Positions 24,969 to 51,762 of a stretch of DNA of 64,000 bases are shown here, one piece after another. The DNA comes from an uncultured Bacillales bacterium (GTDB lineage Bacteria; Bacillota_I; Bacilli_A; RF39; UBA660), in contig CANOBK010000007.1 in the NCBI GenBank assembly GCA_947564265.1, forward strand, positions 38,529 to 102,528. Reading direction: 5' to 3'. Position numbers and translations under genes: made by a program. Below the pieces are notes generated by a model, which saw nothing but the letters and a program-made list of their open reading frames with translations, did not search any database and was not told the origin of the DNA. Numbering within the stretch: the stretch's first letter is position 1; each line of letters opens with the position of its first letter.

Positions 24969-26954
24969 ATGAAAAAATTAGATTTAGGAAAAGACAATAT
25001 TAACAAGTTATTATTATCATTTGCTATACCTTGTGTTATTAGCATGTTAATTAATTCAGTTTATAATATTGTCGATCAGATTTTTATTGGAAAGGGAGTT
25101 GGAACAGTAGGAAATGCCGCTACTAATGTTATCTTTCCCCTAGTGTTAATCTTTGGTGCAGTTGCTTCTTTAATTGGAAATGGAACGAGTGCTAATTTGT
25201 CATTAAAACTAGGAGAAGGGAAGAAAGAAGAGGCAAAACAATCTCTAGGAAGTTCTATCACTGTTTCCGTAATGATTGCTTGTATCGTTGGTATTTTATC
25301 CTATTTTCTTTTACCACATTTAGTACATTTCTTTGGAAGTACAGAGACAGTTTATCCTTATGCTTTAGCCTACGGAAAAATTATTGCGATAGGATCCCCT
25401 TTTGTTATTATTTATTCCATGTTATCAAATGTGATTCGGGCTGATGGTTCTCCTAAGTATTCTATGATTATGTTGGTGATAGGCGCTGTTATTAATATTA
25501 TTTTGGATCCTATCTTTATCTTTGGTTTTCATATGGGAGTAGAAGGAGGTGCTTGGGCTACAGTCATTGGACAAGTGGTTTCCTTTCTAATTGCAATCTT
25601 CTATATTCCAAAAATAAAAAGTGTAAAGTTAGAGAAAAGAGACTTTGTCCCAAACAAATCAATTTTTAGAATTTTGGGTCTAGGATTGTCTAGTTTTATC
25701 ACGCAAATGACAGTTTTAGTTTTATTTGTATTTATGAATAATATGTTAACTAGGTTAGGTGCTGATACCAAGTTTGGTGCGGATACTCCGTTATCTGTTT
25801 ATGGAATTATTTCAAAAATAAATAGTCTCTATATTTCTTCTGTTCTTGGTATTGCGATTGGTTCCCAACCAATTATTGGATTCAACTATGGAGCAGGAAA
25901 TAAGAAACGAGTAAAGGAAGTATTAAGAAAGGTATTAACCGTAAATTTCATCATTGGAATTATTTTTAATTTGATTTTTGTACTATTCCCAGAACAGTTA
26001 GTGAGTCTCTTTATTACGAAATCTGATGCAAGTTATGAACTGTTTATTGAGTTTGCTGTTCTCACTTGTAGATCGATGATGCTAGTAATGGGGATTAACG
26101 TGTTAGAAATTACAACTAGTATTGTTGTTCAGTCTTTGGGAAATGTTTTAAAAGCAACGATGGTTTCCTTTATTCGTCAGATTCTTTTATTCATCCCAAT
26201 CGCATGTCTTTTAAGTCTTGTATTTCATAAGGGAATTTATGGAGTCTTATACGCAGGACCAATCGCTGATATAATTTGCTTCTTGATTTGTATTTTCATT
26301 TTTGGTTCAGAGTATAAGAAATTAACAGAGGTCGAGGAGACGAAAGTAAAAGAATATGCTTCTAGTAAGAAACATTCCTCTTATAAGGGAAAACATATTG
26401 TTGTGACAATTTCTAGAGAATATGGAAGTGGCGGACGTTATGTCGGACAGTTACTAGCAGAACAATTAGGAGTTCCTTTTTACGATAAAGAATTAATTAG
26501 TCTAAGTGCGAAAGAGTCTGGATTGTCTAAAGAATATATTGAAAAAATTGATGAGAAGAATTCTTCTATGAAAACAGAAAGTAATAACGATGATCGACTA
26601 TTTATCGCAGAAACAAAAGTCATTCAAGATTTAGCAAAAAAAGAGTCTTGTGTGATTGTAGGAAGATGTGCTGATTATATTTTAAAAGATCATAAAGATG
26701 TGTTAAAAATATTTTTATATAGTGATGATCATAGTAAAGAAGAACGCGCAACTAAGTATTATGATATTCCTAAAAACAAAGCTTCTAAGTATATTAAGGA
26801 CATCAATAAAAAAAGAGCAAAGCATTATAAGTACTATACAGGGAGAGATTGGAATGAACGTAGTAATTACGACTTATTAATTAATGTTGATACTTTTGGA
26901 GTAGAAAAGACTGCCAATCAATTACTGGATTATATTAAAAATAGAGGAGAGTAG
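24969..26954 (+). CDS. MATE-family efflux transporter fused to a C-terminal cytidylate-kinase-like (AAA-like) domain
   Basis: N-terminal ~450 aa with about 12 hydrophobic spans and a MATE-like start 'LLLSFAIPCVISMLINSVYNIVDQIFIGKG'; C-terminal ~200 aa 'ISREYGSGGRYVGQLLAEQLGVPFYDKELI ... VIVGRCADYIL', typical of the cytidylate kinase-like family. Confidence 0.75.
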   Translation: MKKLDLGKDNINKLLLSFAIPCVISMLINSVYNIVDQIFIGKGVGTVGNAATNVIFPLVLIFGAVASLIGNGTSANLSLKLGEGKKEEAKQSLGSSITVSVMIACIVGILSYFLLPHLVHFFGSTETVYPYALAYGKIIAIGSPFVIIYSMLSNVIRADGSPKYSMIMLVIGAVINIILDPIFIFGFHMGVEGGAWATVIGQVVSFLIAIFYIPKIKSVKLEKRDFVPNKSIFRILGLGLSSFITQMTVLVLFVFMNNMLTRLGADTKFGADTPLSVYGIISKINSLYISSVLGIAIGSQPIIGFNYGAGNKKRVKEVLRKVLTVNFIIGIIFNLIFVLFPEQLVSLFITKSDASYELFIEFAVLTCRSMMLVMGINVLEITTSIVVQSLGNVLKATMVSFIRQILLFIPIACLLSLVFHKGIYGVLYAGPIADIICFLICIFIFGSEYKKLTEVEETKVKEYASSKKHSSYKGKHIVVTISREYGSGGRYVGQLLAEQLGVPFYDKELISLSAKESGLSKEYIEKIDEKNSSMKTESNNDDRLFIAETKVIQDLAKKESCVIVGRCADYILKDHKDVLKIFLYSDDHSKEERATKYYDIPKNKASKYIKDINKKRAKHYKYYTGRDWNERSNYDLLINVDTFGVEKTANQLLDYIKNRGE

Positions 26955-38971: not shown

Positions 38972-39496
38972 ATGCAGGTAGTTCATCCACTATCACCAAT
39001 TTATGATGAAAATTCTAAAGTTTTGATTTTGGGAAGTATGCCATCTGTGAAGTCTAGAGAGGTTGGTTTTTATTATGGTCATCCCAAAAATCGTTTTTGG
39101 AAAGTTTTAGAAAAAGTTTATGAGGAAAAAATAGGAGAGAGTAAGGAAGAAAAGATTTTATTTTTAAAGAAACACCATATTGCCCTTTTTGATGTTTTAA
39201 AGAGTTGTGATATTGCCTCTTCTAAAGATCAATCTATTAAAAATCCAGTACCAAACGATTTTACTGAGATTTTAGAAAATACAAAAATAAAAGTGATTTT
39301 TACAACAGGAAGAAAGGCACAGGAACTGTATCACAAATACTGTTATCCGAAAACAAAAATAGAAGCCATCTATTTACCAAGTACTTCTCCTTGTAATTGT
39401 CCAAAAGGAATTGAGGACAAATTAGAGAACGCTTATAAAGAGATAAAGAAATATACGGAAAATTCTTTTTCCTCGTCTAAAAAAATGATAGAATAG
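38972..39496 (+). CDS. UDG-superfamily DNA glycosylase, family-6-like (DNA-deoxyinosine / hypoxanthine-DNA glycosylase)
   Basis: GAAGGAGG RBS; 'ILGSMPSVKSREVGFYYGHPKNRFW', 'LPSTSP'. Confidence 0.7.
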   Translation: MQVVHPLSPIYDENSKVLILGSMPSVKSREVGFYYGHPKNRFWKVLEKVYEEKIGESKEEKILFLKKHHIALFDVLKSCDIASSKDQSIKNPVPNDFTEILENTKIKVIFTTGRKAQELYHKYCYPKTKIEAIYLPSTSPCNCPKGIEDKLENAYKEIKKYTENSFSSSKKMIE

Positions 39497-39513
39497 TACT
39501 AAGGAGTGATTGT

Positions 39514-40143
39514 ATGAAAGTGTTATTAGCAACCACAAACGATGCAAAAATTAAATATTACGGAACAAGATTAAAAGAAAAGGGAATTAATCTTGTAACA
39601 TTAAAAGATTTAGAGATAGATGTTGATGTGGATGAAACGGGGAAGGATCCAATTGAAAATGCAGTGATTAAAGCAAAAACTTATTACGAAATTAGCCAAC
39701 TTCCTACGATTGCAATCGATGACGGATTATTTTTTGAAAATGTACCAGAAGAGGTTCAACCAGGAACCCATGTTCGTAGAGTGGGTGAAAAAAGACTGAA
39801 TGATCAAGAAATGATTGAACATTATATTAATCTTGTAAATCAATATGGTACAGATGGAAAATTAAATGGATATTTTTTAAAAGGAGTAGCAGTTGTAAAC
39901 GGAGAAAACAATTATACTTTTGACTACAAATCTAATCGTCACTTTACAAATAGGCAGAGTAATTTCTTAGATAAAGGATATCCTTTAGATTCAATTCAGA
40001 TTGTTGTTCCTATCAATAAATTTAAGTGTGAATTAACAAAAGAAGAGGAAGAGGCTACTTTAGGTATTGAAAAGAAAGAAATATTTGGATTTATTTTAAA
40101 AACAATTCAGGAAATAGAAAAGAGAGTTCTAAGAGAATGGTGA
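39514..40143 (+). CDS. Ham1/ITPase-like non-canonical purine NTP pyrophosphatase, divergent paralogue
   Basis: 'KVLLATTNDAKIKYY', 'ENAVIKAK', 'IAIDDGLFFENVPEEVQPGTHVRR'; lacks the C-terminal SHR motif. Confidence 0.65.
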   Translation: MKVLLATTNDAKIKYYGTRLKEKGINLVTLKDLEIDVDVDETGKDPIENAVIKAKTYYEISQLPTIAIDDGLFFENVPEEVQPGTHVRRVGEKRLNDQEMIEHYINLVNQYGTDGKLNGYFLKGVAVVNGENNYTFDYKSNRHFTNRQSNFLDKGYPLDSIQIVVPINKFKCELTKEEEEATLGIEKKEIFGFILKTIQEIEKRVLREW

Positions 40144-40152
40144 AATCATAGT

Positions 40153-40824
40153 ATGGAAATCAAAGATTTAAATAAAAAATATGATGTACTTCAAAAGAAA
40201 TATGGAGCTAAAGAACTTGATTCTATTTATAATGGAGGTTTAGAAGAAAACCCTGATATCTGTTTTGTATTTATGAATCCAACAGGAAGGAATATTGCCT
40301 CTACGAAAGAATGGAAAGGAAGAAAATCTCCCTGGATTGGTACAAAGAATATTTGGGATTTGTTTTATGCAATCGATTTAGTTGATGAAGATTTATATTT
40401 AGAAATCAAACAAAAAAAGGGAAGCGAATGGACGGAAGAATTTGCAGATATTGTCTATCAAAATGTGGAAGCACACCGTTACTTTATTACGAATTTAGGA
40501 AAATGTACACAGGTTGATGCTAGACCACTTCCAGATTCTGTTTATAAGGAATATTTAAATTTACTATATAAAGAGTTTGAAATTCTAAAACCAAAAGTTA
40601 TTATTCTTTTTGGAAATCAAGTGAGCTCTATTGTGTTAGATCAGAAAATTTCTGTTTCACAAAGTAGAAAAACCTGCTATGAGAAAAAAATTAAAAAAGA
40701 AACTTATAAATTTTACCCTGTCTATTATCCGATTGGAAATGGGAGATTTAATATTGATAAGTCAATTGAAGATATCAAATGGATTATGAAACAGGAATTA
40801 GGGAAGACGGAGGTAGTAAAATGA
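40153..40824 (+). CDS. UDG-superfamily protein, divergent (family 4/SMUG-like motif A 'FMNPTG')
   Basis: 'ICFVFMNPTGRN', 'ITNLGKCTQ', 'VIILFGNQVS'. Confidence 0.6.
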   Translation: MEIKDLNKKYDVLQKKYGAKELDSIYNGGLEENPDICFVFMNPTGRNIASTKEWKGRKSPWIGTKNIWDLFYAIDLVDEDLYLEIKQKKGSEWTEEFADIVYQNVEAHRYFITNLGKCTQVDARPLPDSVYKEYLNLLYKEFEILKPKVIILFGNQVSSIVLDQKISVSQSRKTCYEKKIKKETYKFYPVYYPIGNGRFNIDKSIEDIKWIMKQELGKTEVVK

Positions 40825-41300
40825 GTCATAAACCAGAACAAGTTAAAATGACGAATATGTGTATGATTATGGATCCTAAGACTGGAAAAGTGTTAGTTCA
40901 AAACCGGAATAAAAATGATTGGGATGGAGTTTCTTTTCCAGGAGGACATATTGAAAGAGGGGAACCAATTATTCTTTCTGTTTTCCGAGAAATATTTGAA
41001 GAAACAGGACTAAAGGTGAAAAATTTAGTTCCTTGTGGTTGTAAAGACTGGTATGATTATGAAAAAGAAGAACGATATTTAGTTTTATTTTATAAGACTT
41101 CTTCTTATGAGGGAAAACTTCTTCCAAGGTCGAAGGAAGGAGAAAACTTTTGGATGAGTATTGAAGAAATTAAACAGTCCGTTGTAGCAGAAGATTTTAT
41201 AGAGATGTTAGAAATTTTTACAGGGGATTCTCCTTATCAAGAATTTTTCTATGAGGATCATGGAGAAGAAGAACCTCGTTGGGTGAAAAAGTTTTATTAG
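40821..41300 (+). CDS. NUDIX hydrolase, MutT/8-oxo-dGTPase-like
   Basis: Perfect Nudix box 'GGHIERGEPIILSVFREIFEETGL'; ATG 40821 overlaps the upstream stop (ATGA). Confidence 0.85.
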   Translation: MSHKPEQVKMTNMCMIMDPKTGKVLVQNRNKNDWDGVSFPGGHIERGEPIILSVFREIFEETGLKVKNLVPCGCKDWYDYEKEERYLVLFYKTSSYEGKLLPRSKEGENFWMSIEEIKQSVVAEDFIEMLEIFTGDSPYQEFFYEDHGEEEPRWVKKFY

Positions 41301-41307
41301 GATATAA

Positions 41308-42033
41308 ATGATGGAAAGTAATAAGCAAGAGAAATTAGAACAGTTGTTTAGAGAAATGTCAAACTGTAAGAATTGTTGTCATTTAGTTAAGAAAAATGGG
41401 AAAGATTGTTCTTTAATCAACATTTATCAAGAACCTGAGTTTTATCAAAATATTCCTTCTATTTGGACGGACTGGTACCGAAGAGTAGATGCCGATATTA
41501 TGATAATTGGTCAAGATTGGGGACCTTATGAAGAAATGAAAAAATTTCATGATCAATATTTGCTTGATAAAACTCCTAATCATTGGAACTATCTAATAGA
41601 GGAAGAAAAAAGCATGACTAAAAAAATGTTAACGAAATATTTGATGGAGTCTTCTAAGGGTACGAATCATGAAATGAAGGAATCAGATATGAATCATATT
41701 TATGTTACGAATGCGATTATGTGTGCGAGAAAGGGCAATCATTATCGTGGGGATAATATTCAGCTAAAAGAATCAACGATCGGTTGTTCCCGCTTTTTAA
41801 AAAGGCAAATAGAGATTGTAAATCCTAAAATAATTGTAACATTAGGATACTATCCATTACTTTCTCTTTCTCATATTTTTCATTTTAAAATTGAAGATAA
41901 TTTGACAAAAACGATTGAAAAAATGCCTGAAATACAGGTTCAAAATTACCGGATTATTCCTCTTTATCATCCAACTGCGCAAGTAAATAAAGAAAGACAA
42001 ATCGCTCAGTATGAACGAATTTGGAAGAGTTAG
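41308..42033 (+). CDS. UDG-superfamily protein, family-4-like with N-terminal Cys cluster and variant motif A 'GQDWG'
   Basis: 'CKNCCHL...CSL', 'IMIIGQDWGP', 'VTNAIMCAR', 'PLYHPTAQ'. Confidence 0.6.
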   Translation: MMESNKQEKLEQLFREMSNCKNCCHLVKKNGKDCSLINIYQEPEFYQNIPSIWTDWYRRVDADIMIIGQDWGPYEEMKKFHDQYLLDKTPNHWNYLIEEEKSMTKKMLTKYLMESSKGTNHEMKESDMNHIYVTNAIMCARKGNHYRGDNIQLKESTIGCSRFLKRQIEIVNPKIIVTLGYYPLLSLSHIFHFKIEDNLTKTIEKMPEIQVQNYRIIPLYHPTAQVNKERQIAQYERIWKS

Positions 42034-46551: not shown

Positions 46552-47127
46552 TTATTTTTTCTTTTTACTTAGGATATAAGGAGTAAGGACGCCAACGGTT
46601 CTTTCTTCGTGAATTTCTCCTTGAATGCATAAATCGATAATTTCTTCATAATCTTTCCAAACAAATCCTTCGATGACTTCATCCTCTTCTAATTTAGGAC
46701 CATCTTTACTAACTTCATAATCTGTGATTTCATAATAATAAAGATCCCAAATAACACCAGCACCATCATGAGAGATTTTCAGAAGTTTTGGGTTTTTTAC
46801 AATTACGCCAACTTCTTCCATGACTTCTTTTGGTACTGTTTTTTCTACATGTTCTAGAACGGTATCTTCTTGAATTGATTTTTTATAATCATCTAAGGAA
46901 TCAAATACTTTTCCTCCTGGTAATCGGTAATCCCAGCCATTTAGTTCATAGCGAAATTCTCGAGATAAGAGAATTTTCATATTCTCTTCATCTACGATTA
47001 AAGCGCGGATTCCTGGAGGGCGTCTCACCATATTTCTTTTTACTGTTTTTTCCTTTCCTTCGATTAAAAAGGTCTCTTCTGTTTGAATAAATTCAAAAAA
47101 ACCATTGTCAAATAGTGACTTTTCCAT
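46552..47127 (-). CDS. NUDIX-like hydrolase with an interrupted Nudix box
   Basis: 'LPGGKVFDS...(insert)...KEVMEEVGV'; ADP-ribose-pyrophosphatase-like overall layout. Confidence 0.6.
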   Translation of the reverse strand: MEKSLFDNGFFEFIQTEETFLIEGKEKTVKRNMVRRPPGIRALIVDEENMKILLSREFRYELNGWDYRLPGGKVFDSLDDYKKSIQEDTVLEHVEKTVPKEVMEEVGVIVKNPKLLKISHDGAGVIWDLYYYEITDYEVSKDGPKLEEDEVIEGFVWKDYEEIIDLCIQGEIHEERTVGVLTPYILSKKKK

Positions 47128-47246: not shown

Positions 47247-48203
47247 GTGTATGACCTCTATTGGTATTTTGCATGGGAGAGACAAAATATATTTATTAGG
47301 AAGCAAGAAGGACAATCTCCCCCTTGGACGAAAGACCCTATCCTAAAGCAATATAAATTTTGTAATAGTTACCGAGTGAATGATCGAGTAAGTCAGTATT
47401 TATTAAAAAATGTAATTTATAATGGAAAGGTTTATTCTAAAGAAGATATGCTATTTCGTATTTTACTATTTAAGTTCTTTAATAAAGAAAGTACTTGGCA
47501 ATTACTTGAACAGGAGTTAGGTGAGATTACCTTAAAAACATTCTCTATAAAAAAGTATTCATCTATTCTAGAGACGGCGATTTCAAAAGGAATCAAAATT
47601 TACAATGATGCCTATATTAGTTGTGCAACTAAAGCTTATGGATATGATCGAAAACATGACAATCATCTAGCGTTATTAGAACATATCTTTAAAATAGATC
47701 AAGCACATTTAGAATTATTAAATGCTAAAACGATGAAAGATGCCTTTCATATTCTAAAAAGATATCCTCTTATTGGAAACTTTATGGCTTATCAGCTTGT
47801 AACAGACATTAATTATAGCGATATTGTATCTTGGGAAGAAAATGAATTTACGGTAGCGGGACCAGGATCTGAGAGAGGGATTAAAAAGTGTTTTATTGAT
47901 AAAGGAGGACTCTCGAATGAAGAAATTATTCGTTATATGTATGAACATCAAGAAGAAGAGTTTCTTCGGTTAGGATTCGATTTTAAAAGAATCGGAAATC
48001 GTTCTCTTCAACTAATTGATTGTCAAAATATTTTTTGTGAATTAGATAAGTATTGTAGAGTTTATTTTCCTGAGTTAAAATCAAATCGAGTAAAGATAAA
48101 AAAGAAATACATTCCTAAAAAAGGAAAGATAGAGTATATCTATCCACCAAAATGGAATATAAAAGGAGATGGAGATAATTATGAGAAAAGAAGATATTTT
48201 TGA
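47247..48203 (+). CDS. Possible member of the thymidine-hypermodification family (aGPT-Pplase / 5-hmdU DNA kinase helical-domain; databases label relatives 'nucleotide kinase domain-containing')
   Basis: From memory only: N-terminal 'LYWYFAWERQNIFIRKQEGQSPPWTKDPILKQYKFCNSYRVNDRVSQYL'. GTG start. Confidence 0.4.
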   Translation: MYDLYWYFAWERQNIFIRKQEGQSPPWTKDPILKQYKFCNSYRVNDRVSQYLLKNVIYNGKVYSKEDMLFRILLFKFFNKESTWQLLEQELGEITLKTFSIKKYSSILETAISKGIKIYNDAYISCATKAYGYDRKHDNHLALLEHIFKIDQAHLELLNAKTMKDAFHILKRYPLIGNFMAYQLVTDINYSDIVSWEENEFTVAGPGSERGIKKCFIDKGGLSNEEIIRYMYEHQEEEFLRLGFDFKRIGNRSLQLIDCQNIFCELDKYCRVYFPELKSNRVKIKKKYIPKKGKIEYIYPPKWNIKGDGDNYEKRRYF

Positions 48204-48297
48204 ATTAGGAATGGGAACTTGGAAAATTAATCCAGAGGATTTTGAACAAGATTTAGAAGCTTTACTTTATTCCTATAATCATGGTCAAAACTCTTAA
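48181..48297 (+). pseudogene. 5' fragment (38 codons) of an aldo/keto reductase
   Basis: 'MRKEDIFELGMGTWKINPEDFEQDLEALLYSYNHGQNS*' matches an AKR N-terminus ('LG.GTW') and then stops. Confidence 0.6.
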
Positions 48298-48317
48298 CTT
48301 GTTATGTAGAAGCTGGA

Positions 48318-48689
48318 TTGATCAATGAAAATACAGTAATCTTTGCCCATTCAATTGCACCAGTCTTTATTTCAAAGTTTTTAATTAAAAATAAATTGAA
48401 AGTAAAGCGATGCGTCTTCGTTTGTGGTTTTAACAATTACTTGGGGATTGATGAAGAATACGATACCGTGAATAAAAGTATGTATTTAGAAAATCTAAAC
48501 GAGGTAAAAAACTACTGTGATGATATTGTTTGTTTTTATTCTGATAATGATCCTTATGTAAAACAAAGCGTTGAAAAAGAATTTGCAGATACCATTACGA
48601 CAAATCAAATTATGATTCCTGGTGGAGGTCATTTGAACTCTGAAAGTGGTTATCAGGAATTTAGTGAATTATTAAACTACTTATCATAG
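48318..48689 (+). pseudogene. N-terminally truncated YdeN/RBBP9-like serine hydrolase
   Basis: Begins inside the fold at 'NTVIFAHSIAP' (nucleophile elbow); TTG pseudo-start, no RBS; about 55-60 N-terminal residues are missing. Confidence 0.5.
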
Positions 48690-48714: not shown

Positions 48715-48743
48715 TTTACTTACTCAAGCAATTAGAGTATAAT
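48715..48743 (+). promoter_or_regulatory. Putative sigma-A promoter of the WYL-regulator operon
   Basis: TTTACT (48715-48720), 17-nt spacer, TATAAT (48738-48743). Confidence 0.6.
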
Positions 48744-48783
48744 AACTAAGAAATCAGAAAGAAATCTTTCAGAGGTGATTCTA

Positions 48784-49260
48784 ATGTCAAAGGTTAGTAA
48801 CGTATTAACGATGATTGAATACTTAAGTAGTGGTAGAAAGTATAATATTCAGGAATTATCAGAATTATTAGAGGTATCTCCAAGAATGATTCGTGTTTAT
48901 AAAGATGAGATTGAAAAAGCAGGAATTTATATTGATACAATCAAGGGTCCTTATGGAGGTTATGTATTAAATCAAAATATTCATGTTCCGAAACGATTTA
49001 TCTCACCGAATCCGATTCGTGTTGAAAATAAAGAAATATTCAATATTGTGAGTAGAGGGATTAAAGAGAATTGTAAATGTAAAATTCATTATTATTCGAA
49101 AGGAAATACCTTAACTTCTAGAATCATTCATCCTTATGAATTAATTCTATTTGGAGACGAATGGGGTGTTGCTGCCTATTGTGAATTGCGAGATGAAATT
49201 AGACATTTTTATATTAATCGAATTGAGTCGATTCAATTATTAGAAAATTTTTCTAACTGA
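48784..49260 (+). CDS. Short HTH + WYL-domain transcriptional regulator (YafY/BrxR/CapW-like layout)
   Basis: GAGGTG RBS; HTH 'YNIQELSELLEVSPRMIRVYKDEIEKAG'; WYL-type 'FGDEWGVAAYCELRDEIRHFYINRIESIQLLE'. Confidence 0.75.
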   Translation: MSKVSNVLTMIEYLSSGRKYNIQELSELLEVSPRMIRVYKDEIEKAGIYIDTIKGPYGGYVLNQNIHVPKRFISPNPIRVENKEIFNIVSRGIKENCKCKIHYYSKGNTLTSRIIHPYELILFGDEWGVAAYCELRDEIRHFYINRIESIQLLENFSN

Positions 49261-49313
49261 CAGATATATTGCCTCTTCTTTTTGTATGATGATATTGAAA
49301 GAGAGGTTTTTAA

Positions 49314-50345
49314 ATGATAAAACATAATTTTACAGAACCAACCAGTATTAATTTTTCAAAGTTAGAAGAGAGAATCATGGCGGTCAATCATCCTGATTTT
49401 ACAAAAGTAGAAGAAATTCGTGAAATGATTTATGGTTTAATTGTTGATGGTAAGCCAACGTTAATTATGGCAACTGGTGGATCGAAGGTTGTTGCCTATT
49501 ATTTGCAACTTATTTTAGAAAGAATAAAATTTAGTGGGATTATTACGGAAGTAATCGAACCAAGAGATTATTTTTATAAGGAAAATCGAGAAATGTTTTC
49601 AAATTTAATTGTAATCTCTGCGAGTGGGAGAACTAATGGGGTTAAAGAGGCACTTGCTGATTTTCAAGGAAATAAGTATCTTTTATGTGAAGAGGGAAAT
49701 TCTTTGGGAGATTTTACGGTTTCATGGAAGAATGAACTCTATGAGAAAGAAAAAAGCTTTATTTCTCTTGCCTCTAGCTTAGCACCAATTACACTTTTAT
49801 TAGATGCAACAACGTCATTAAGACTAGAACTGAGTTCAAAAGAGCTTCGGGATATCAATGAAAAAATCCATGATTTGTTACTTCGAAGTCAAGAGAAGGT
49901 AGAGTGTTTACCCGTTGATTTTAAAGATACAAGTCTAATTCAAATTATGACAGGTTATGAAACAAGAGTATCTAGTAGTGTATTAGAATCTAACTTGGTA
50001 GAGTCTGGTGCTTGTATTCCTGTTTTACATGATAAAGGTTCGTTTTGTCATGGAAGAAGTAATTTATTATTTCAAAATCCAGAAAGTAAATGCATCTATT
50101 TGACTCATGGAAGAAAAGAGCTGGATTCAATCTTAATTGATTTAATTGGGGAAGAATATTCTAATCTATCGGTTTTTGATACAGAGGATTTAAATGACGA
50201 TATTTTCTGGAGGGAATATTATTTAATGTTACAAATGTACTTTTTATCTAAAAAGGTTGCAGAGGACAAAAATATAGATTTAACACAGCCAGAATATAAT
50301 CCTAAGATTATCAAAAAAATTTATTCATTTAAGGGGGAAATGTAA
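49314..50345 (+). CDS. Unknown protein with N-terminal SIS-like (phosphosugar-binding Rossmann) signature
   Basis: 'LIMATGGSKVVAYYLQLILE ... NLIVISASGRTNGVKEAL' resembles SIS motifs; the rest is unrecognised. Confidence 0.45.
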   Translation: MIKHNFTEPTSINFSKLEERIMAVNHPDFTKVEEIREMIYGLIVDGKPTLIMATGGSKVVAYYLQLILERIKFSGIITEVIEPRDYFYKENREMFSNLIVISASGRTNGVKEALADFQGNKYLLCEEGNSLGDFTVSWKNELYEKEKSFISLASSLAPITLLLDATTSLRLELSSKELRDINEKIHDLLLRSQEKVECLPVDFKDTSLIQIMTGYETRVSSSVLESNLVESGACIPVLHDKGSFCHGRSNLLFQNPESKCIYLTHGRKELDSILIDLIGEEYSNLSVFDTEDLNDDIFWREYYLMLQMYFLSKKVAEDKNIDLTQPEYNPKIIKKIYSFKGEM

Positions 50346-50346
50346 G

Positions 50347-50961
50347 ATGGAACGATTAACTTATGTAACTAGTAATTCTAAAAAATATATTGCAGTAAAG
50401 GAACATTTTGAAGAAGAGGGCTTAGAACTAGATTATTTTATACAAGATCTTTTTGAACCCGAAATTAATGATATTGAGAAAATATCAAGAACGAAAGCAG
50501 AGGAAGCCTATTCTATCTTAGGAAAACCTTGCTTTGTCGCAGATAGTGGATTTTATATTGATCATTATCCTGGAAATCCTGGGTATCCAGGAGCTTTTGC
50601 GAAACGAAGTGGAGTTAGTTCTGATATTGATTCTTTATTAAAGGTCATGGAGAACGTTTCGGATAGGACTTGTCGGTTTGTTGATTGTTTAACGTTTTAT
50701 GATGGAAAAGACTTTTATACTTTTTATGGGGTTAGTGAGGGTAGTTTGGCAGATACTCCTAGGGGAGAACATACGGAAAAAGCTAAATCCAATTTATGGA
50801 GATTATTTATTCCAAAAAATTGTTCTAAAACTTTAGCCGAGATGACTGACTATGAAAGAAAGACAAGAGAAGATGGTCGTACTTCTGCGACAGAACTCTT
50901 TGCGAAATGGTATAAGAATGAGTATAACAAAGGAAAAATTATAAAAAAGGAGTATTCATAA
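50347..50961 (+). CDS. Ham1/ITPase-like NTP pyrophosphatase, second divergent paralogue
   Basis: ATG 1 nt after the upstream stop; 'TYVTSNSKKYIAVKEHF', 'FVADSGFYIDHYPGNPGYPGAFAKR', 'LFIPKNCSKTLAEMTDYERK'. Confidence 0.65.
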   Translation: MERLTYVTSNSKKYIAVKEHFEEEGLELDYFIQDLFEPEINDIEKISRTKAEEAYSILGKPCFVADSGFYIDHYPGNPGYPGAFAKRSGVSSDIDSLLKVMENVSDRTCRFVDCLTFYDGKDFYTFYGVSEGSLADTPRGEHTEKAKSNLWRLFIPKNCSKTLAEMTDYERKTREDGRTSATELFAKWYKNEYNKGKIIKKEYS

Positions 50962-51017
50962 AAATCGTAGGAAGGTATTTTCAATTAGAAAGTGTTGTGT
51001 TATACTGAATCTGTAAA

Positions 51018-51058
51018 GGGCTAGTAGAGACTTTATTGTTTTTACTAGTCCTTTTTTT
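51018..51058 (+). terminator. Putative rho-independent terminator (long loop)
   Basis: GGGCTAGTA (51018-51026) / TACTAGTCC (51043-51051) then TTTTTTT. Confidence 0.5.
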
Positions 51059-51075
51059 GTTGGAGGTTTTAAGAT

Positions 51076-51237
51076 ATGGATGCAAAAGAGATAGGGCAAT
51101 TTATTGCAAAATGTAGAAGGGAACAAGGCTATAGTTAAAATCAATTGGGAATTCTTCTTGGAATATCTGGAAAATCTATTTCTAAATGGGACTTTAGTAT
51201 ACCAGATATATTTTTTGTTAAGTTCATAAGTAAATGA
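51076..51237 (+). pseudogene. XRE-family HTH gene inactivated by an in-frame stop
   Basis: GGAGG RBS; 'MDAKEIGQFIAKCRREQGYS*NQLGILLGISGKSISKWD...' with TAA at 51136-51138 inside the HTH. Confidence 0.7.
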
Positions 51238-51762
51238 GTATCAGTAGAAGAATTGTTGGAAGCGAAAAAGAAAGATGATGTCATGAATCAATGAGGAAAC
51301 AAAATTCTCCAAAGGGATTCTAGAAGTCTTTCTAATATTTGTGTTTTGTAAGGGGACTTATTAAGTCCATCTTCTTTTTTTTAGGTATGGACTTAACAAG
51401 TCCTCCCAAAAATTTCCAATTTGTATTATTGTGGAGGAAAAGAGGTAAGTTTAAATAAAAAAGATTAGTATATTTACACTAAGAATGGCACTACTATTAG
51501 GTATTTCAACTTATGATGTTTAGCAAGCTATCAACATGATACTATTGCTACAACACTAGTTAAGAGTAAAGATTATACTTTTTCAATAACTGGATATTAG
51601 AAGGTATTTGACTTCAGTGCAGGATCTCGAACATCTATGATGGAATGAATGGCGTTGATATTGTACTATAAAAATTATTAATTTTGGTAACAACGTAATT
51701 TTGCAAAATGCGTATGAGCTGCAGATAGTGTTTGTTATAAATACAAAGAAGAGGAGAAAATT

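What the first reader, a model, noticed from the sequence alone, without database searches (positions are those of the whole stretch)
48715..50961. WYL-regulator / SIS-like protein / divergent Ham1 pyrophosphatase three-gene module
A predicted promoter (TTTACT-17-TATAAT) drives a short HTH+WYL regulator ('GDEWGVAAYCELRDEIRHFYINRIESIQLLE'). Next is a 343-aa unknown protein whose N-terminus has SIS-type phosphosugar-binding signatures ('ATGGSKVVAYYL', 'VISASGRTNG'). A Ham1/ITPase-like protein starts 1 nt after that protein's stop. The module is flanked on both sides by gene debris (48181-48689 and 50962-51762), which is typical of variable islands. WYL-domain regulators characteristically control defence or stress modules such as BREX, CBASS and CRISPR-associated operons. 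A ligand-binding SIS-like protein coupled to an NTP pyrophosphatase is not a combination I know as a described system. It could be a nucleotide-depleting or signal-degrading effector pair.
Basis: partly seen in the sequence, partly recalled or inferred. Interest (0 to 1): 0.65.

Follow-up and report, generated by a model that had tools for sequence, protein, structure and literature searches.

The report
WYL-gated tandem-SIS plus Ham1 cassette
A compact, mobile three-gene unit found in about 200 species of uncultured gut Bacilli pairs a nucleotide-cleaving enzyme and a sugar-phosphate enzyme under a tightly built switch; no paper describes this combination, and it is a good candidate for a new nucleotide-targeting defence or clean-up system.

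Summary
The genes are an HTH-WYL regulator (48784-49260), a 343-aa protein (49314-50345) and a Ham1 pyrophosphatase (50347-50961, 1 nt after the stop), with gene debris on both sides.

- **Middle protein:** a confident model (pLDDT 94) shows a GlmS/FrlB-type tandem-SIS fold.
- **Ham1:** it keeps its catalytic Asp and phosphate-binding residues in 60 orthologues. It has lost the hypoxanthine-recognition motifs. It is therefore not a Kongming KomB-type sensor.
- **Conservation:** across 82 loci from different species, WYL lies upstream in about 70 and Ham1 downstream in about 66. The flanking genes differ almost everywhere, and about 8 copies sit on integrative mobilisable elements.
- **Variants:** the WYL+SIS core stays constant. 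The partner changes (Ham1, a ribokinase-like PfkB kinase, fusions of either, an added BtpA, or none).
- **New finding:** a conserved leader lies between WYL and the enzyme genes. It has a −10-like box and a covarying hairpin that sequesters the SIS ribosome-binding site.
- **Evolution:** SIS and Ham1 alleles reassort between cassettes.

Function is unproven. My best guess is an inducible cassette that removes a nucleotide species from the pool, probably conflict-related. Stress-induced clean-up of abnormal nucleotides is the main rival.

The parts
48715..48743 (+). Promoter P1 for the regulator gene (TTTACT-17-TATAAT)
   Evidence: Consensus scan gives 10 of 12 matches. A TATAAT(A) −10 box is conserved at the same distance upstream of the WYL ATG in 66 distinct loci. 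Function not tested.
48784..49260 (+). Minimal wHTH-WYL transcription factor, 158 aa, with no WCX domain
   Evidence: Pfam WYL 1.6e-15 (residues 84-151) and HTH_11 1.8e-6. PADLOC WYL model 4.4e-28. Found upstream of the SIS gene in about 70 of 82 loci. Also found at 36-52% identity in all variant architectures.
49241..49273 (+). Conserved junction box GAC[AG]N2-3ATA[TC]TNCC (49259-49273), overlapping a candidate internal promoter P2 (TAGAAA-18-TATATT, 49241-49270); it may also be the WYL operator
   Evidence: The box occurs once in the window, against 0.04 expected. It gives 88 matches in the 99 loci held (1.03 Mb): one in each locus that holds the junction upstream of the SIS gene, plus one extra match in each of two loci. 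The invariant positions fit A2 and T6 of a −10 hexamer. The P2 hexamers were listed. Loci L022 and L052, which lack WYL, keep this box and about the last 20 nt of the WYL gene. Its role as promoter or operator is inferred.
49271..49308 (+). Hairpin followed by a U-run; its 3' arm contains the Shine-Dalgarno sequence of the SIS gene (RBS sequestration and/or terminator of the WYL transcript)
   Evidence: Window: −14 kcal/mol, z = −2.97, 0 of 200 shuffles fold as well. Across 53 loci: mean z = −3.7, with the SD paired in 51 of 53. Covariance model R1 gives one hit per locus, 76 in 972 kb. Covariation: 95.9% of cells paired, 5 pairs changed on both sides, 0 of 500 shuffles reach the observed score, and slid controls score lower. 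No Rfam family matches.
49314..50345 (+). Tandem-SIS protein of the GlmS-isomerase / FrlB / NagB-II type, 343 aa; the constant enzyme or ligand-binding core of the system
   Evidence: AF2 pLDDT 94.2, pTM 0.93. The top 50 Foldseek PDB hits are all double-SIS proteins; the best is 2aml, E = 2e-15, TM 0.78. The family profile hits 2aml at 5e-6 and FrlB at 2e-4, with E230 and H246-G247 aligned to the E…HGP motif. In 54 diverse sequences G55, E230, H246 and G247 are invariant, and G56, S57, E146, S148, S151 and K241 are at least 90% conserved. Homologous PfkB fusions pass the Pfam SIS threshold.
50347..50961 (+). Ham1/ITPase-type NTP pyrophosphatase, 204 aa, with an intact catalytic centre and a remodelled base pocket; translationally coupled to SIS
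   Evidence: Pfam Ham1p_like 6.2e-23. PDB hits: PH1917 5e-14, KomB 3.6e-8. In 60 orthologues N10, K13, E37, K50, D66, R87, R107 and G140 are at least 97% conserved. A conserved S148-x-L150-W151 replaces the FGYD motif, and the SHR motif is not conserved. The 1-nt gap after the SIS stop is found in 41 of 47 loci scored.
51015..51064 (+). Terminator-like hairpin and T-run closing the operon
   Evidence: Scan: 17-pair stem at 51015-51054 followed by TTTTTGTTGG. Not tested comparatively.
48169..48689 (+). Upstream gene debris: aldo-keto reductase N-terminal stub (48169-48297) joined to the C-terminal part of a Ser_hydrolase (48318-48689)
   Evidence: Pfam Ser_hydrolase 3e-12, covering profile positions 54-170 of 172. 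blastn against L005 shows about 900 bp missing.
51076..51285 (+). Downstream gene debris: XRE-type HTH pseudogene with in-frame stop codons
   Evidence: Translation and weak blastx hits to HTH proteins, best E = 5e-4.

Best explanation
This is an autonomous, horizontally mobile cassette that removes a particular nucleotide species from the cell's pool when it is switched on.

**Switch**
- The small HTH-WYL protein is made from its own promoter, P1.
- Between its stop codon and the enzyme genes lie a conserved −10-like box and a hairpin with a U-run.
- The hairpin ends the regulator's transcript and hides the ribosome-binding site of the SIS gene.
- The enzymes are therefore made only from an internal promoter, P2, which the WYL protein controls.
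- By analogy with other WYL factors, the protein would be released by a nucleic-acid or nucleotide ligand that appears on infection or DNA damage.

**Enzymes**
- Once on, SIS and Ham1 are made together (1-nt gap between the genes).
- Ham1 has a complete catalytic centre but lacks the ITP/XTP-specific base pocket. It would cleave some other (d)NTP to (d)NMP and pyrophosphate.
- The GlmS/FrlB-like tandem-SIS enzyme would bind the pentose-5-phosphate part of that product and convert it, so that it cannot be re-phosphorylated.
- In sister cassettes a ribokinase-like PfkB kinase replaces Ham1. That would reach the same 5'-phosphate intermediate from the nucleoside or sugar side.

**Role**
- I think the most likely biological role is conflict: defence against phage or other mobile elements. 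The cassette would starve them of a nucleotide they need, or destroy a non-canonical one they make.

**Shown:** the folds, the conserved residues, the gene linkage, the mobility, the leader element and the partner swapping.
**Inferred:** the substrates, the role of P2 and the operator, the trigger, and the biological role.
For: - **Linkage.** In 82 loci from different species, WYL, SIS and Ham1 cluster in 70, 82 and 66 loci. The next commonest neighbour occurs in only 8. The 408 flanking genes fall into 320 clusters.
- **Mobility.** The match to the mobile-element copies L001-L004 covers exactly 48784-50861. Those copies sit beside a serine recombinase and a Mob_Pre relaxase.
- **Partner swapping, always behind a WYL homologue.** I found a Ham1::SIS fusion, a PfkB::SIS fusion, SIS→PfkB, PfkB→SIS and BtpA→SIS→Ham1.
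- **Ham1 is catalytically competent.** Its catalytic residues are conserved while its base-pocket motifs are replaced.
- **SIS looks like an enzyme.** It has the tandem-SIS fold, conserved phosphate loops and the E…HG motif.
- **Leader.** There is one copy per locus, with covariation, and the SD is paired in 51 of 53 loci.
- **Ham1 is never found without WYL.** Tallied from the tblastn table: 63 loci have both, 9 have WYL only, 3 have neither, and 0 have Ham1 only. My hand calculation gives Fisher p of about 0.003, not corrected for phylogeny.
- **Mosaic alleles.** L011 and L031 share 91% SIS and 94% WYL identity but only 60% Ham1. L019 and L054 share 82% Ham1 but only 52% SIS.
- **Conflict hints.** A distant homologue lies between a TCAD9-like giant protein and a LlaJI-type restriction-modification system. 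The window copy sits in a decaying variable island next to a variable HMUDK_hel gene.
- **Precedent.** Kongming shows that a Ham1 protein can act in immunity.
Against: - PADLOC has no model that matches the SIS or Ham1 protein.
- Only about a tenth of 139 neighbour families hit defence models, and many neighbours are housekeeping genes.
- The cassette has no classical toxic effector such as a nuclease, NADase or pore-former.
- Every partner family (Ham1, PfkB, BtpA, NUDIX, His_Phos, HAD) is ordinary nucleotide or sugar-phosphate metabolism.
- A NUDIX gene is the most frequent immediate neighbour.
- No SIS enzyme is known to act on a nucleotide. GlmS-type ring-opening chemistry needs a free anomeric carbon.
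- WYL factors also control DNA-damage regulons, not only defence (abstracts).
- Transcriptional induction alone is slow for defence against phage.
- No experiment has been done.
Confidence: 0.4

Rival explanations
1. Same biochemistry, but a stress or housekeeping role. On this reading the cassette is induced by DNA or nucleotide damage. Ham1 hydrolyses an abnormal purine (d)NTP, for example a ring-opened (Fapy-type) or glycated N-adduct. The FrlB-like SIS enzyme then removes or rearranges the damaged sugar-amine linkage. These small-genome bacteria may depend heavily on nucleotide salvage (my assumption, not tested here), which would make this useful to them.
For: - Ham1 keeps full catalytic machinery, as housekeeping enzymes do.
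- The nearest SIS relatives are deglycases and deaminases that act on sugar-amine bonds.
- NUDIX hydrolases are recurrent immediate neighbours, and L092 has NUDIX and His_Phos_1 directly upstream of WYL.
- The window and L005 carry a UDG–Ham1–UDG–NUDIX–UDG block nearby.
- WYL regulators such as PafBC, DriD and SiwR drive DNA-damage responses (abstracts).
- Defence-island enrichment is weak.
Against: - The cassette sits in a different context in almost every species and rides on mobilisable elements.
- Deeply diverged SIS and Ham1 alleles reassort between cassettes.
- The distribution is patchy and the family is rare: 203 clusters among 1.84 billion representatives.
- The genome already has another Ham1-like gene.
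- Gene loss and pseudogenisation are frequent.
- The tight two-layer repression is unusual for a clean-up enzyme.
Confidence: 0.3
2. The SIS protein is not an enzyme. It is a ligand-sensing partner, like glucokinase regulatory protein or the SIS domain of RpiR regulators. It would bind a phosphosugar or nucleotide and switch the attached enzyme (Ham1 or PfkB) on or off.
For: - Fusions of SIS to either Ham1 or PfkB exist.
- The 1-nt gap suggests coupled translation and a complex.
- SIS domains are known sensor modules (RpiR and MurR hits).
- SIS is the constant part and the enzymes are the variable part.
Against: - E230, H246 and G247 are invariant, and K241 is near-invariant, at the position of the GlmS-type catalytic E…HG motif.
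- Nine loci have WYL and SIS without any partner, and two have SIS alone with an intact gene. A pure regulator with nothing to regulate is unlikely.
- SIS and Ham1 alleles reassort freely, which argues against a tightly co-adapted interface.
Confidence: 0.1
3. An ordinary sugar or Amadori-compound catabolic operon of the FrlD/FrlB type (kinase plus deglycase). Ham1 would be an incidental passenger.
For: - PfkB+SIS pairs and fusions mirror FrlD+FrlB.
- Weak NCBIfam hits include fructoselysine 6-kinase.
- The structural neighbours are FrlB, NagB-II, AgaS and GlmS.
Against: - No transporter or PTS gene, and no RpiR/GntR/LacI regulator, is part of the cassette.
- The conserved regulator is a WYL protein.
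- Ham1 is the partner in 66 of 82 loci, is translationally coupled, and is fused to SIS in some genomes.
- The kinases' best weak hits are pentose (ribose-1-P and ribose) kinases.
- The window protein itself is below every curated SIS or isomerase threshold.
Confidence: 0.08
4. A Kongming-like signalling system: Ham1 senses dITP and activates the neighbouring protein as a toxic effector. Alternatively, an anti-defence module that destroys dITP/ITP immune signals.
For: - The Ham1 protein hits KomB structures (8zsg, 3.6e-8).
- Kongming pairs and fuses HAM1 with its effector, as seen here for Ham1 and SIS.
Against: - Defensive HAM1s invariably carry His in place of the catalytic Asp, and they always pair with SIR2-like KomC. 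Here the Asp is at least 97% conserved and the partner is a tandem-SIS protein.
- The cassette has no deaminase.
- The hypoxanthine-recognition motifs are lost. This argues against dITP as either ligand or substrate.
- The cassette is absent from phage and plasmid collections, which argues against a phage counter-defence.
Confidence: 0.04

Closest known systems
Kongming (KomABC) anti-phage system
   Same: Both are three-gene units containing a HAM1-family protein. In both, that protein is genetically coupled to its partner and sometimes fused to it. Both have a nucleotide-centred logic. The window Ham1 detectably matches KomB structures.
   Different: KomB is catalytically dead (Asp→His) and senses dITP; here the Asp is conserved and the inosine pocket is lost. 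The partner is a tandem-SIS protein, not SIR2. There is no adenosine deaminase. A WYL regulator and a leader RNA are present.
Housekeeping ITPases (RdgB, Mj0226, PH1917, human ITPA)
   Same: The fold and the catalytic and phosphate-binding residues are shared. The best sequence matches are PH1917 at 5e-14 and Mj0226 at 2e-12.
   Different: It scores below the NCBIfam equivalog cut-offs (83 bits against 145). FGYD is replaced by a conserved S-x-L-W, and SHR is lost. It lies in a mobile, WYL-controlled cassette. A second Ham1-like gene lies elsewhere in the window.
GlmS-isomerase-type tandem-SIS enzymes (FrlB deglycase, NagB-II, AgaS, Lmo0035)
   Same: It has the two-SIS architecture (TM 0.6-0.78). 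It has phosphate-binding GGS and S-x-SG loops. It has the E…HG motif in the second SIS domain. The PfkB kinase partner in variant cassettes recalls FrlD/FrlB.
   Different: Identity is about 15%. The window protein has no Pfam SIS hit. It is not in a sugar-uptake operon. Its partners are nucleotide or pentose enzymes, and its regulator is a WYL protein.
WYL-domain regulators of defence and DNA-damage operons (BrxR, CapW, PafBC, DriD)
   Same: It has an N-terminal winged HTH followed by a WYL domain. It is encoded directly upstream of the genes it presumably controls.
   Different: It is half their size (158 aa) and has no WCX dimerisation domain. The conserved cis element lies downstream of the regulator gene, at an internal promoter/hairpin junction, not in its own promoter.

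Membership tests
Kongming (KomABC) | HAM1 protein of the defensive clade, with the catalytic Asp replaced by His (KomB His65) | tested here: not met
   The window has FVADSGFY where KomB has FVEHTGLY. D66 is at least 97% conserved in 60 orthologues.
Kongming (KomABC) | SIR2-like KomC effector coupled to the HAM1 protein | tested here: not met
   The partner has no Pfam SIR2 hit. The top 50 Foldseek hits of its model are all tandem-SIS proteins.
Kongming (KomABC) | Adenosine deaminase KomA in the operon | tested here: not met
   The third gene is an HTH-WYL regulator. No deaminase appears in the 82 loci.
HAM1/ITPase non-canonical purine NTP pyrophosphatases | Ham1p_like domain above the Pfam gathering score | tested here: met
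   82.1 bits against a cut-off of 22.5, full length.
HAM1/ITPase non-canonical purine NTP pyrophosphatases | Catalytic and triphosphate-binding residues (TxN..K, Glu, Lys, the Asp of the DSG motif, Arg) | tested here: met
   N10, K13, E37, K50, D66, R87 and R107 are at least 97% conserved. They align to PH1917.
HAM1/ITPase non-canonical purine NTP pyrophosphatases | Hypoxanthine/xanthine recognition motifs (FGYD/FGWD and SHR). Their role is recalled from published ITPA/RdgB structures, not tested here. | tested here: not met
   FGYD is replaced by SNLW with a 4-residue insertion, and SHR by DGR. S-x-L-W is conserved and the SHR position is not. The protein is below the NCBIfam equivalog cut-offs.
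HAM1/ITPase non-canonical purine NTP pyrophosphatases | ITP/XTP/dITP pyrophosphatase activity | not testable with these tools
   Needs an enzyme assay.
GlmS-type tandem-SIS phosphosugar isomerase/deaminase/deglycase | Two SIS subdomains in one chain | tested here: met
   AF2 pLDDT 94.2. Foldseek matches 2aml, 7dnr, 3knz, 3g68, 1mos, 8fdb and 3eua at E from 2e-15 to 1e-11.
GlmS-type tandem-SIS phosphosugar isomerase/deaminase/deglycase | Pfam SIS (PF01380) at the gathering score | tested here: inconclusive
   The window protein has no hit. Homologous PfkB fusions pass: P0207 32.8, P0260 32.9 and P0253 28.8 bits against a cut-off of 25. The family profile hits SIS structures at 5e-6.
GlmS-type tandem-SIS phosphosugar isomerase/deaminase/deglycase | Phosphate-binding loops and the E…HG(P) catalytic motif of the second SIS domain | tested here: met
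   G55-G56-S57, the S102-x-S104-G105 loop, E230 and H246-G247 are conserved. They align to FETKFSET…HGP of 2aml and to the matching HGP of FrlB. The equivalent of GlmS Glu488/Lys603 is not resolved.
GlmS-type tandem-SIS phosphosugar isomerase/deaminase/deglycase | Carbohydrate-utilisation context (transporter or PTS, sugar regulator) | tested here: not met
   The flanks are unrelated in nearly every locus, and the only constant neighbours are WYL and Ham1 or PfkB.
BrxR/CapW-type WYL regulators | wHTH followed by a WYL domain | tested here: met
   Pfam HTH_11 at residues 8-60 and WYL at residues 84-151. PADLOC WYL models also match.
BrxR/CapW-type WYL regulators | C-terminal WCX dimerisation domain (about 290-aa protein) | tested here: not met
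   The protein is 158 aa and ends 7 residues after the WYL domain.
BrxR/CapW-type WYL regulators | Encoded next to a recognised defence system | tested here: not met
   The regulated genes have no PADLOC match. Neighbouring genes give only a weak defence signal.

The most novel reading that the evidence does not exclude
This could be an unrecognised family of anti-phage or anti-mobile-element systems in gut Bacilli.

- A minimal WYL repressor and an RBS-hiding leader gate a two-step nucleotide destroyer.
- A Ham1 variant strips pyrophosphate from a (d)NTP that the invader needs or makes. This may be a modified base such as a 5-hydroxymethyl-pyrimidine or a 2-aminoadenine nucleotide.
- A GlmS-like tandem-SIS enzyme would then act on a nucleotide-derived pentose-5-phosphate, so that the product cannot be salvaged. 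No SIS enzyme is known to do this.
- Ribokinase-like kinases would serve as alternative entry enzymes.
- Rapidly reassorting enzyme alleles would reflect an arms race.
Probability: 0.25. Interest if true: 0.85.

Novelty: new variant of a known kind. Interest (0 to 1): 0.6.

Why it matters
- **New chemistry in conflict.** If the cassette acts in conflict, it would add a new enzyme logic to nucleotide-based immunity: a catalytically active Ham1 plus a SIS-fold enzyme. It would contrast with Kongming, where the Ham1 protein is a dead sensor.
- **New SIS substrate.** If the cassette is a clean-up module, it would be the first SIS-fold enzyme tied to nucleotide metabolism. It would also be an example of a WYL regulator controlling pool sanitation.
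- **Ready-made regulatory unit.** Whatever the function, the conserved leader and the small regulator offer a compact, testable unit.
- **Open biology.** Its hosts here are almost all uncultured gut Bacilli known only from metagenome assemblies.

Tried and rejected
- **Kongming membership.** The KomB hit suggested it. It was rejected because the catalytic Asp is retained, the partner is a SIS protein rather than SIR2, and there is no deaminase.
- **SIR2 or CARF fold for the middle protein.** Rejected by Foldseek.
- **Phage or plasmid origin, or a phage counter-defence.** The SIS protein has no relative in IMG/VR, INPHARED phages or PLSDB plasmids.
- **Known defence candidate.** PADLOC v2 has no model that matches SIS or Ham1. 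It predates Kongming, so this is weak evidence.
- **Known RNA family for the leader.** None in Rfam.
- **RNAalifold on the MAFFT alignment of the junction.** It gave no structure because the purine-rich 3' arm was misaligned. Per-sequence folding and a covariance model solved this.
- **WYL regulon within reach.** The junction box and model R1 occur only at the junction, not elsewhere in the window or in ±6 kb of the loci.
- **Metagenome scan with the 16-mer GACGATATATTTCCTC, to find other cargo behind the same leader.** Of 120 hits, 119 were chance matches and one was another WYL-SIS pair.
- **The search for related loci with the 54-sequence alignment.** It failed because no stretch was conserved enough. 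A closer 12-sequence alignment worked.
- **Alternative third genes in WYL-SIS loci that lack Ham1.** The downstream genes are unrelated to one another (glycoside hydrolase/PHP, S41 protease, small membrane proteins), so they are not system parts.
- **Literature searches for HAM1 + SIS + defence or WYL.** Nothing found.
- **A quick regex tally of WYL presence.** It misclassified some loci, so I used the tblastn table instead.

Full report
**1.

- **Regulator, 48784-49260.** The start is the ATG, because orthologues begin MSK. Pfam gives WYL 1.6e-15 and HTH_11 1.8e-6.
- **343-aa ORF, 49314-50345.** Both quoted motifs are present. It has no Pfam hit and one weak NCBIfam SIS-type hit.
- **Ham1, 50347-50961.** It starts 1 nt after the preceding stop codon. 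Pfam Ham1p_like 6.2e-23.
- **Ends of the unit.** The promoter-like site lies at 48715-48743 and a terminator-like hairpin at 51015-51054.
- **Flanks.** Both are genuine debris.
  - Upstream, an aldo-keto-reductase stub is joined to two thirds of a Ser_hydrolase gene. The join results from a deletion of about 900 bp relative to the intact genes in L005.
  - Downstream is an XRE-type HTH gene with in-frame stop codons.

**2. What the proteins are**

*Middle protein.*
- An alignment of 54 diverse homologues gave an AlphaFold2 model with pLDDT 94.2 and pTM 0.93.
- Its 50 best PDB matches are all tandem-SIS proteins of the GlmS-isomerase, FrlB, NagB-II or AgaS type. The best is Lmo0035 (2aml), E = 2e-15, TM 0.78.
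- A sequence profile of the family also reaches 2aml (5e-6) and FrlB (2e-4). It aligns the invariant E230 and H246-G247 with the E…HGP motif of the second SIS domain.
- The phosphate-binding loops (G55-G56-S57 and S-x-S-G) are conserved.
The conservation pattern looks like an active or ligand-binding site, not a decayed one.

*Ham1.*
- Its best matches are archaeal ITPases (PH1917 at 5e-14). It also hits KomB of the Kongming defence system (3.6e-8).
- Kongming's defensive HAM1s always replace the catalytic Asp with His, and they always pair with a SIR2 protein.
- Here the Asp (D66) and the other phosphate and metal ligands are at least 97% conserved in 60 orthologues.
- The FGYD motif is replaced by a conserved S-x-L-W, and the SHR motif is lost. 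From published ITPA/RdgB structures, as I recall them, those two motifs read the hypoxanthine base.
- The enzyme is therefore very probably active, but on something other than ITP/XTP.

**3. It is a real, mobile module**

*How rare and where.*
- The SIS family is rare. It has 482 clusters at 90% identity, and 203 of 1.84 billion representatives at 50% identity.
- A scan of one genome per species found relatives in 199 stretches. The best 80 are almost all uncultured gut Bacilli MAGs.

*How the genes sit together.*
- In 82 non-redundant loci, WYL lies directly upstream in about 70 and Ham1 directly downstream in about 66.
- The SIS-Ham1 gap is 1 nt in 41 of 47 loci scored.
- The next most common neighbour family occurs in only 8 loci. 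The 408 flanking genes fall into 320 clusters.
- The cassette therefore sits in a different place in almost every species.
- About eight copies are cargo of elements that carry a serine recombinase and a Mob_Pre relaxase. The DNA match to those copies covers exactly the three genes.
- It is absent from IMG/VR, from GenBank phages and from PLSDB plasmids.

**4. The core is WYL+SIS, and the partner is swappable**

All of the following lie behind a WYL homologue of 36-52% identity:

| Architecture | Locus |
|---|---|
| Ham1::SIS fusion | L089 |
| PfkB::SIS fusion | L090 |
| SIS then PfkB, overlapping stop and start | L092 |
| PfkB then SIS, 1-nt gap | L094 |
| BtpA/SgcQ, SIS, Ham1 | L086 |

- Nine loci have WYL and SIS only. 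Three have SIS without WYL (intact in L022 and L052, pseudogenised in L041), and none of those three has Ham1.
- Ham1 never occurs without WYL. Tallied, the counts are 63, 9, 3 and 0, and my hand calculation gives Fisher p of about 0.003, uncorrected for phylogeny.
- The PfkB partners' best weak matches are ribose-1-phosphate kinase and ribokinase.
- Ham1 makes NMP from NTP. A ribokinase-like kinase makes a 5'-phosphate from a nucleoside or pentose.
- The simplest common denominator is therefore that the SIS protein works on, or senses, a pentose-5-phosphate compound. This is inference.

**5.

*The box.*
- Between the WYL stop codon and the next gene lies the box GAC[AG]N2-3ATA[TC]TNCC (window 49259-49273).
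- It occurs once in the window, against 0.04 expected. It gives 88 matches in the 99 loci held (1.03 Mb): one in each locus that holds the junction, plus one extra match in each of two loci.

*The hairpin.*
- The box is followed by a hairpin (49271-49308) and a U-run. The hairpin's 3' arm carries the Shine-Dalgarno sequence of the SIS gene.
- In the window it folds at −14 kcal/mol with z = −2.97.
- In 53 loci the mean z is −3.7, and the SD is paired in 51.
- A covariance model finds one hit per locus: 76 in 972 kb. These include the distant variants and the loci that lack WYL.
- The pairs covary. 95.9% of cells are paired, five pairs show changes on both sides, none of 500 shuffles reaches the observed score, and slid registers score lower.
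- Rfam has no such family.

*What it may do.*
- The invariant positions of the box fit a −10 hexamer, TATATT. A weak −35 lies inside the end of the WYL gene.
- L022 and L052 have lost WYL but keep exactly this stretch.
- My reading is inferred. The hairpin would end and insulate the regulator's transcript and hide the SIS ribosome-binding site. The enzymes would be made from an internal promoter whose box is also the likely WYL operator.
- Translational coupling by hairpin melting is an alternative.

**6. Evolution**
- Mean pairwise divergence is 0.43 for SIS, 0.39 for Ham1 and 0.24 for WYL.
- The genes have discordant histories. L011 and L031 share 91% SIS and 94% WYL identity but only 60% Ham1. 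L019 and L054 share 82% Ham1 but only 52% SIS.
- Alleles are therefore exchanged between cassettes. Several copies are frameshifted or truncated.

**7. What it most likely does**

The shown facts fit an inducible cassette that removes a nucleotide species from the pool. Ham1 would carry out the first step, and the SIS enzyme would make it irreversible.

| | For a conflict or defence role | Against |
|---|---|---|
| Cassette behaviour | Mobility, partner swapping and allele reassortment | — |
| Regulation | Tight gating; Ham1 depends on WYL | WYL factors also run DNA-damage regulons |
| Neighbourhood | Window copy lies in a decaying island next to a variable HMUDK_hel gene; a distant homologue lies beside a TCAD9-like protein and a LlaJI-type R-M system | Weak defence-island signal; recurrent NUDIX neighbours |
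| Enzymes | Kongming is a precedent for Ham1 in immunity | No PADLOC model; no classical toxin; all the enzyme families are ordinary metabolism |

My probabilities are:
- about 0.4 for the conflict reading;
- 0.3 for stress-induced clean-up of abnormal nucleotides using the same chemistry;
- about 0.1 for SIS as a pure sensor;
- less than 0.1 each for plain sugar or Amadori catabolism and for a Kongming-like or anti-Kongming role.

**8. Comparison and novelty**
- The cassette works partly like Kongming: it has a Ham1 at the centre and a coupled partner. It is not a member, because all three defining features fail.
- The Ham1 is a divergent member of the ITPase family.
- The middle protein is a divergent member of the GlmS-type tandem-SIS group.
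- The regulator is a truncated relative of BrxR/CapW that lacks the WCX domain.
- I found no paper linking HAM1 with a SIS domain, or a WYL domain with Ham1, PfkB or a phosphosugar isomerase.
- I rate it a new variant of a known kind, namely WYL-controlled accessory cassettes. It has an undescribed enzyme pair and an undescribed leader.
- Interest is 0.6, limited by the lack of any functional evidence and by hosts that are almost all uncultured.

Noticed in passing
window 47247-48203 (+): A stand-alone protein made entirely of the 5-hmdU DNA kinase helical domain (HMUDK_hel, E = 8.9e-104). It has no kinase domain and a faint OGG-glycosylase hit in PADLOC. It is absent from the syntenic slot in L005-L007 (L007 has a methyltransferase there) and present in L008. 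Homologues also lie next to the cassette in L051 and L052, in the opposite orientation and paired with a radical-SAM/SPASM gene. It may be a separate conflict gene aimed at DNA with modified bases.
   Followed up: partly
window 38972-42033 (+): A run of five genes: UDG-superfamily, a second Ham1-like gene (39514-40143), UDG, NUDIX, UDG. The same block lies about 3 kb upstream of the cassette in L005-L007, there with a metallo-beta-lactamase-fold (Apyc1-like) gene. Three UDG paralogues beside a Ham1 and a NUDIX is an unusual concentration of DNA and nucleotide sanitising genes.
   Followed up: partly
window 46552-47127 (−); L021, L061-L063, L066, L092: NUDIX hydrolase genes are the most frequent immediate neighbour of the cassette. 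They belong to at least two unrelated NUDIX clusters. In L092, NUDIX and a His_Phos_1 phosphatase abut the WYL gene.
   Followed up: partly
L095 667-10605: A distant SIS-family homologue (22% identity) has no WYL gene. It lies between a 1273-aa protein with a weak TCAD9 (ternary conflict system) domain hit and two DNA methylases, an AAA_5 protein and a LlaJI-type restriction enzyme.
   Followed up: partly
L086 5228-5968: A four-gene variant has a BtpA/SgcQ-family TIM-barrel gene (Pfam 1.5e-22) inserted between the leader and the SIS gene. This is a further phosphosugar-type partner.
   Followed up: partly
L001 5877-7424: On the mobilisable element, the gene next to the cassette encodes a 515-aa fusion of DUF5677 and Peptidase_C15 (pyroglutamyl peptidase). 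It is followed downstream by a Dp1-type holin and a GH25 lysin. I did not determine whether these belong to the element.
   Followed up: no
window 24969-26954 (+): A 661-aa ORF joins a MatE efflux transporter (E = 5e-46) to a C-terminal cytidylate-kinase-like domain (E = 6e-53). This is an unusual fusion.
   Followed up: no
L091 3578-8010: A PfkB::SIS fusion is preceded not by WYL but by an overlapping 808-aa HAD-type (Hydrolase_3) protein. A DDE transposase and a DNA methylase lie nearby.
   Followed up: no
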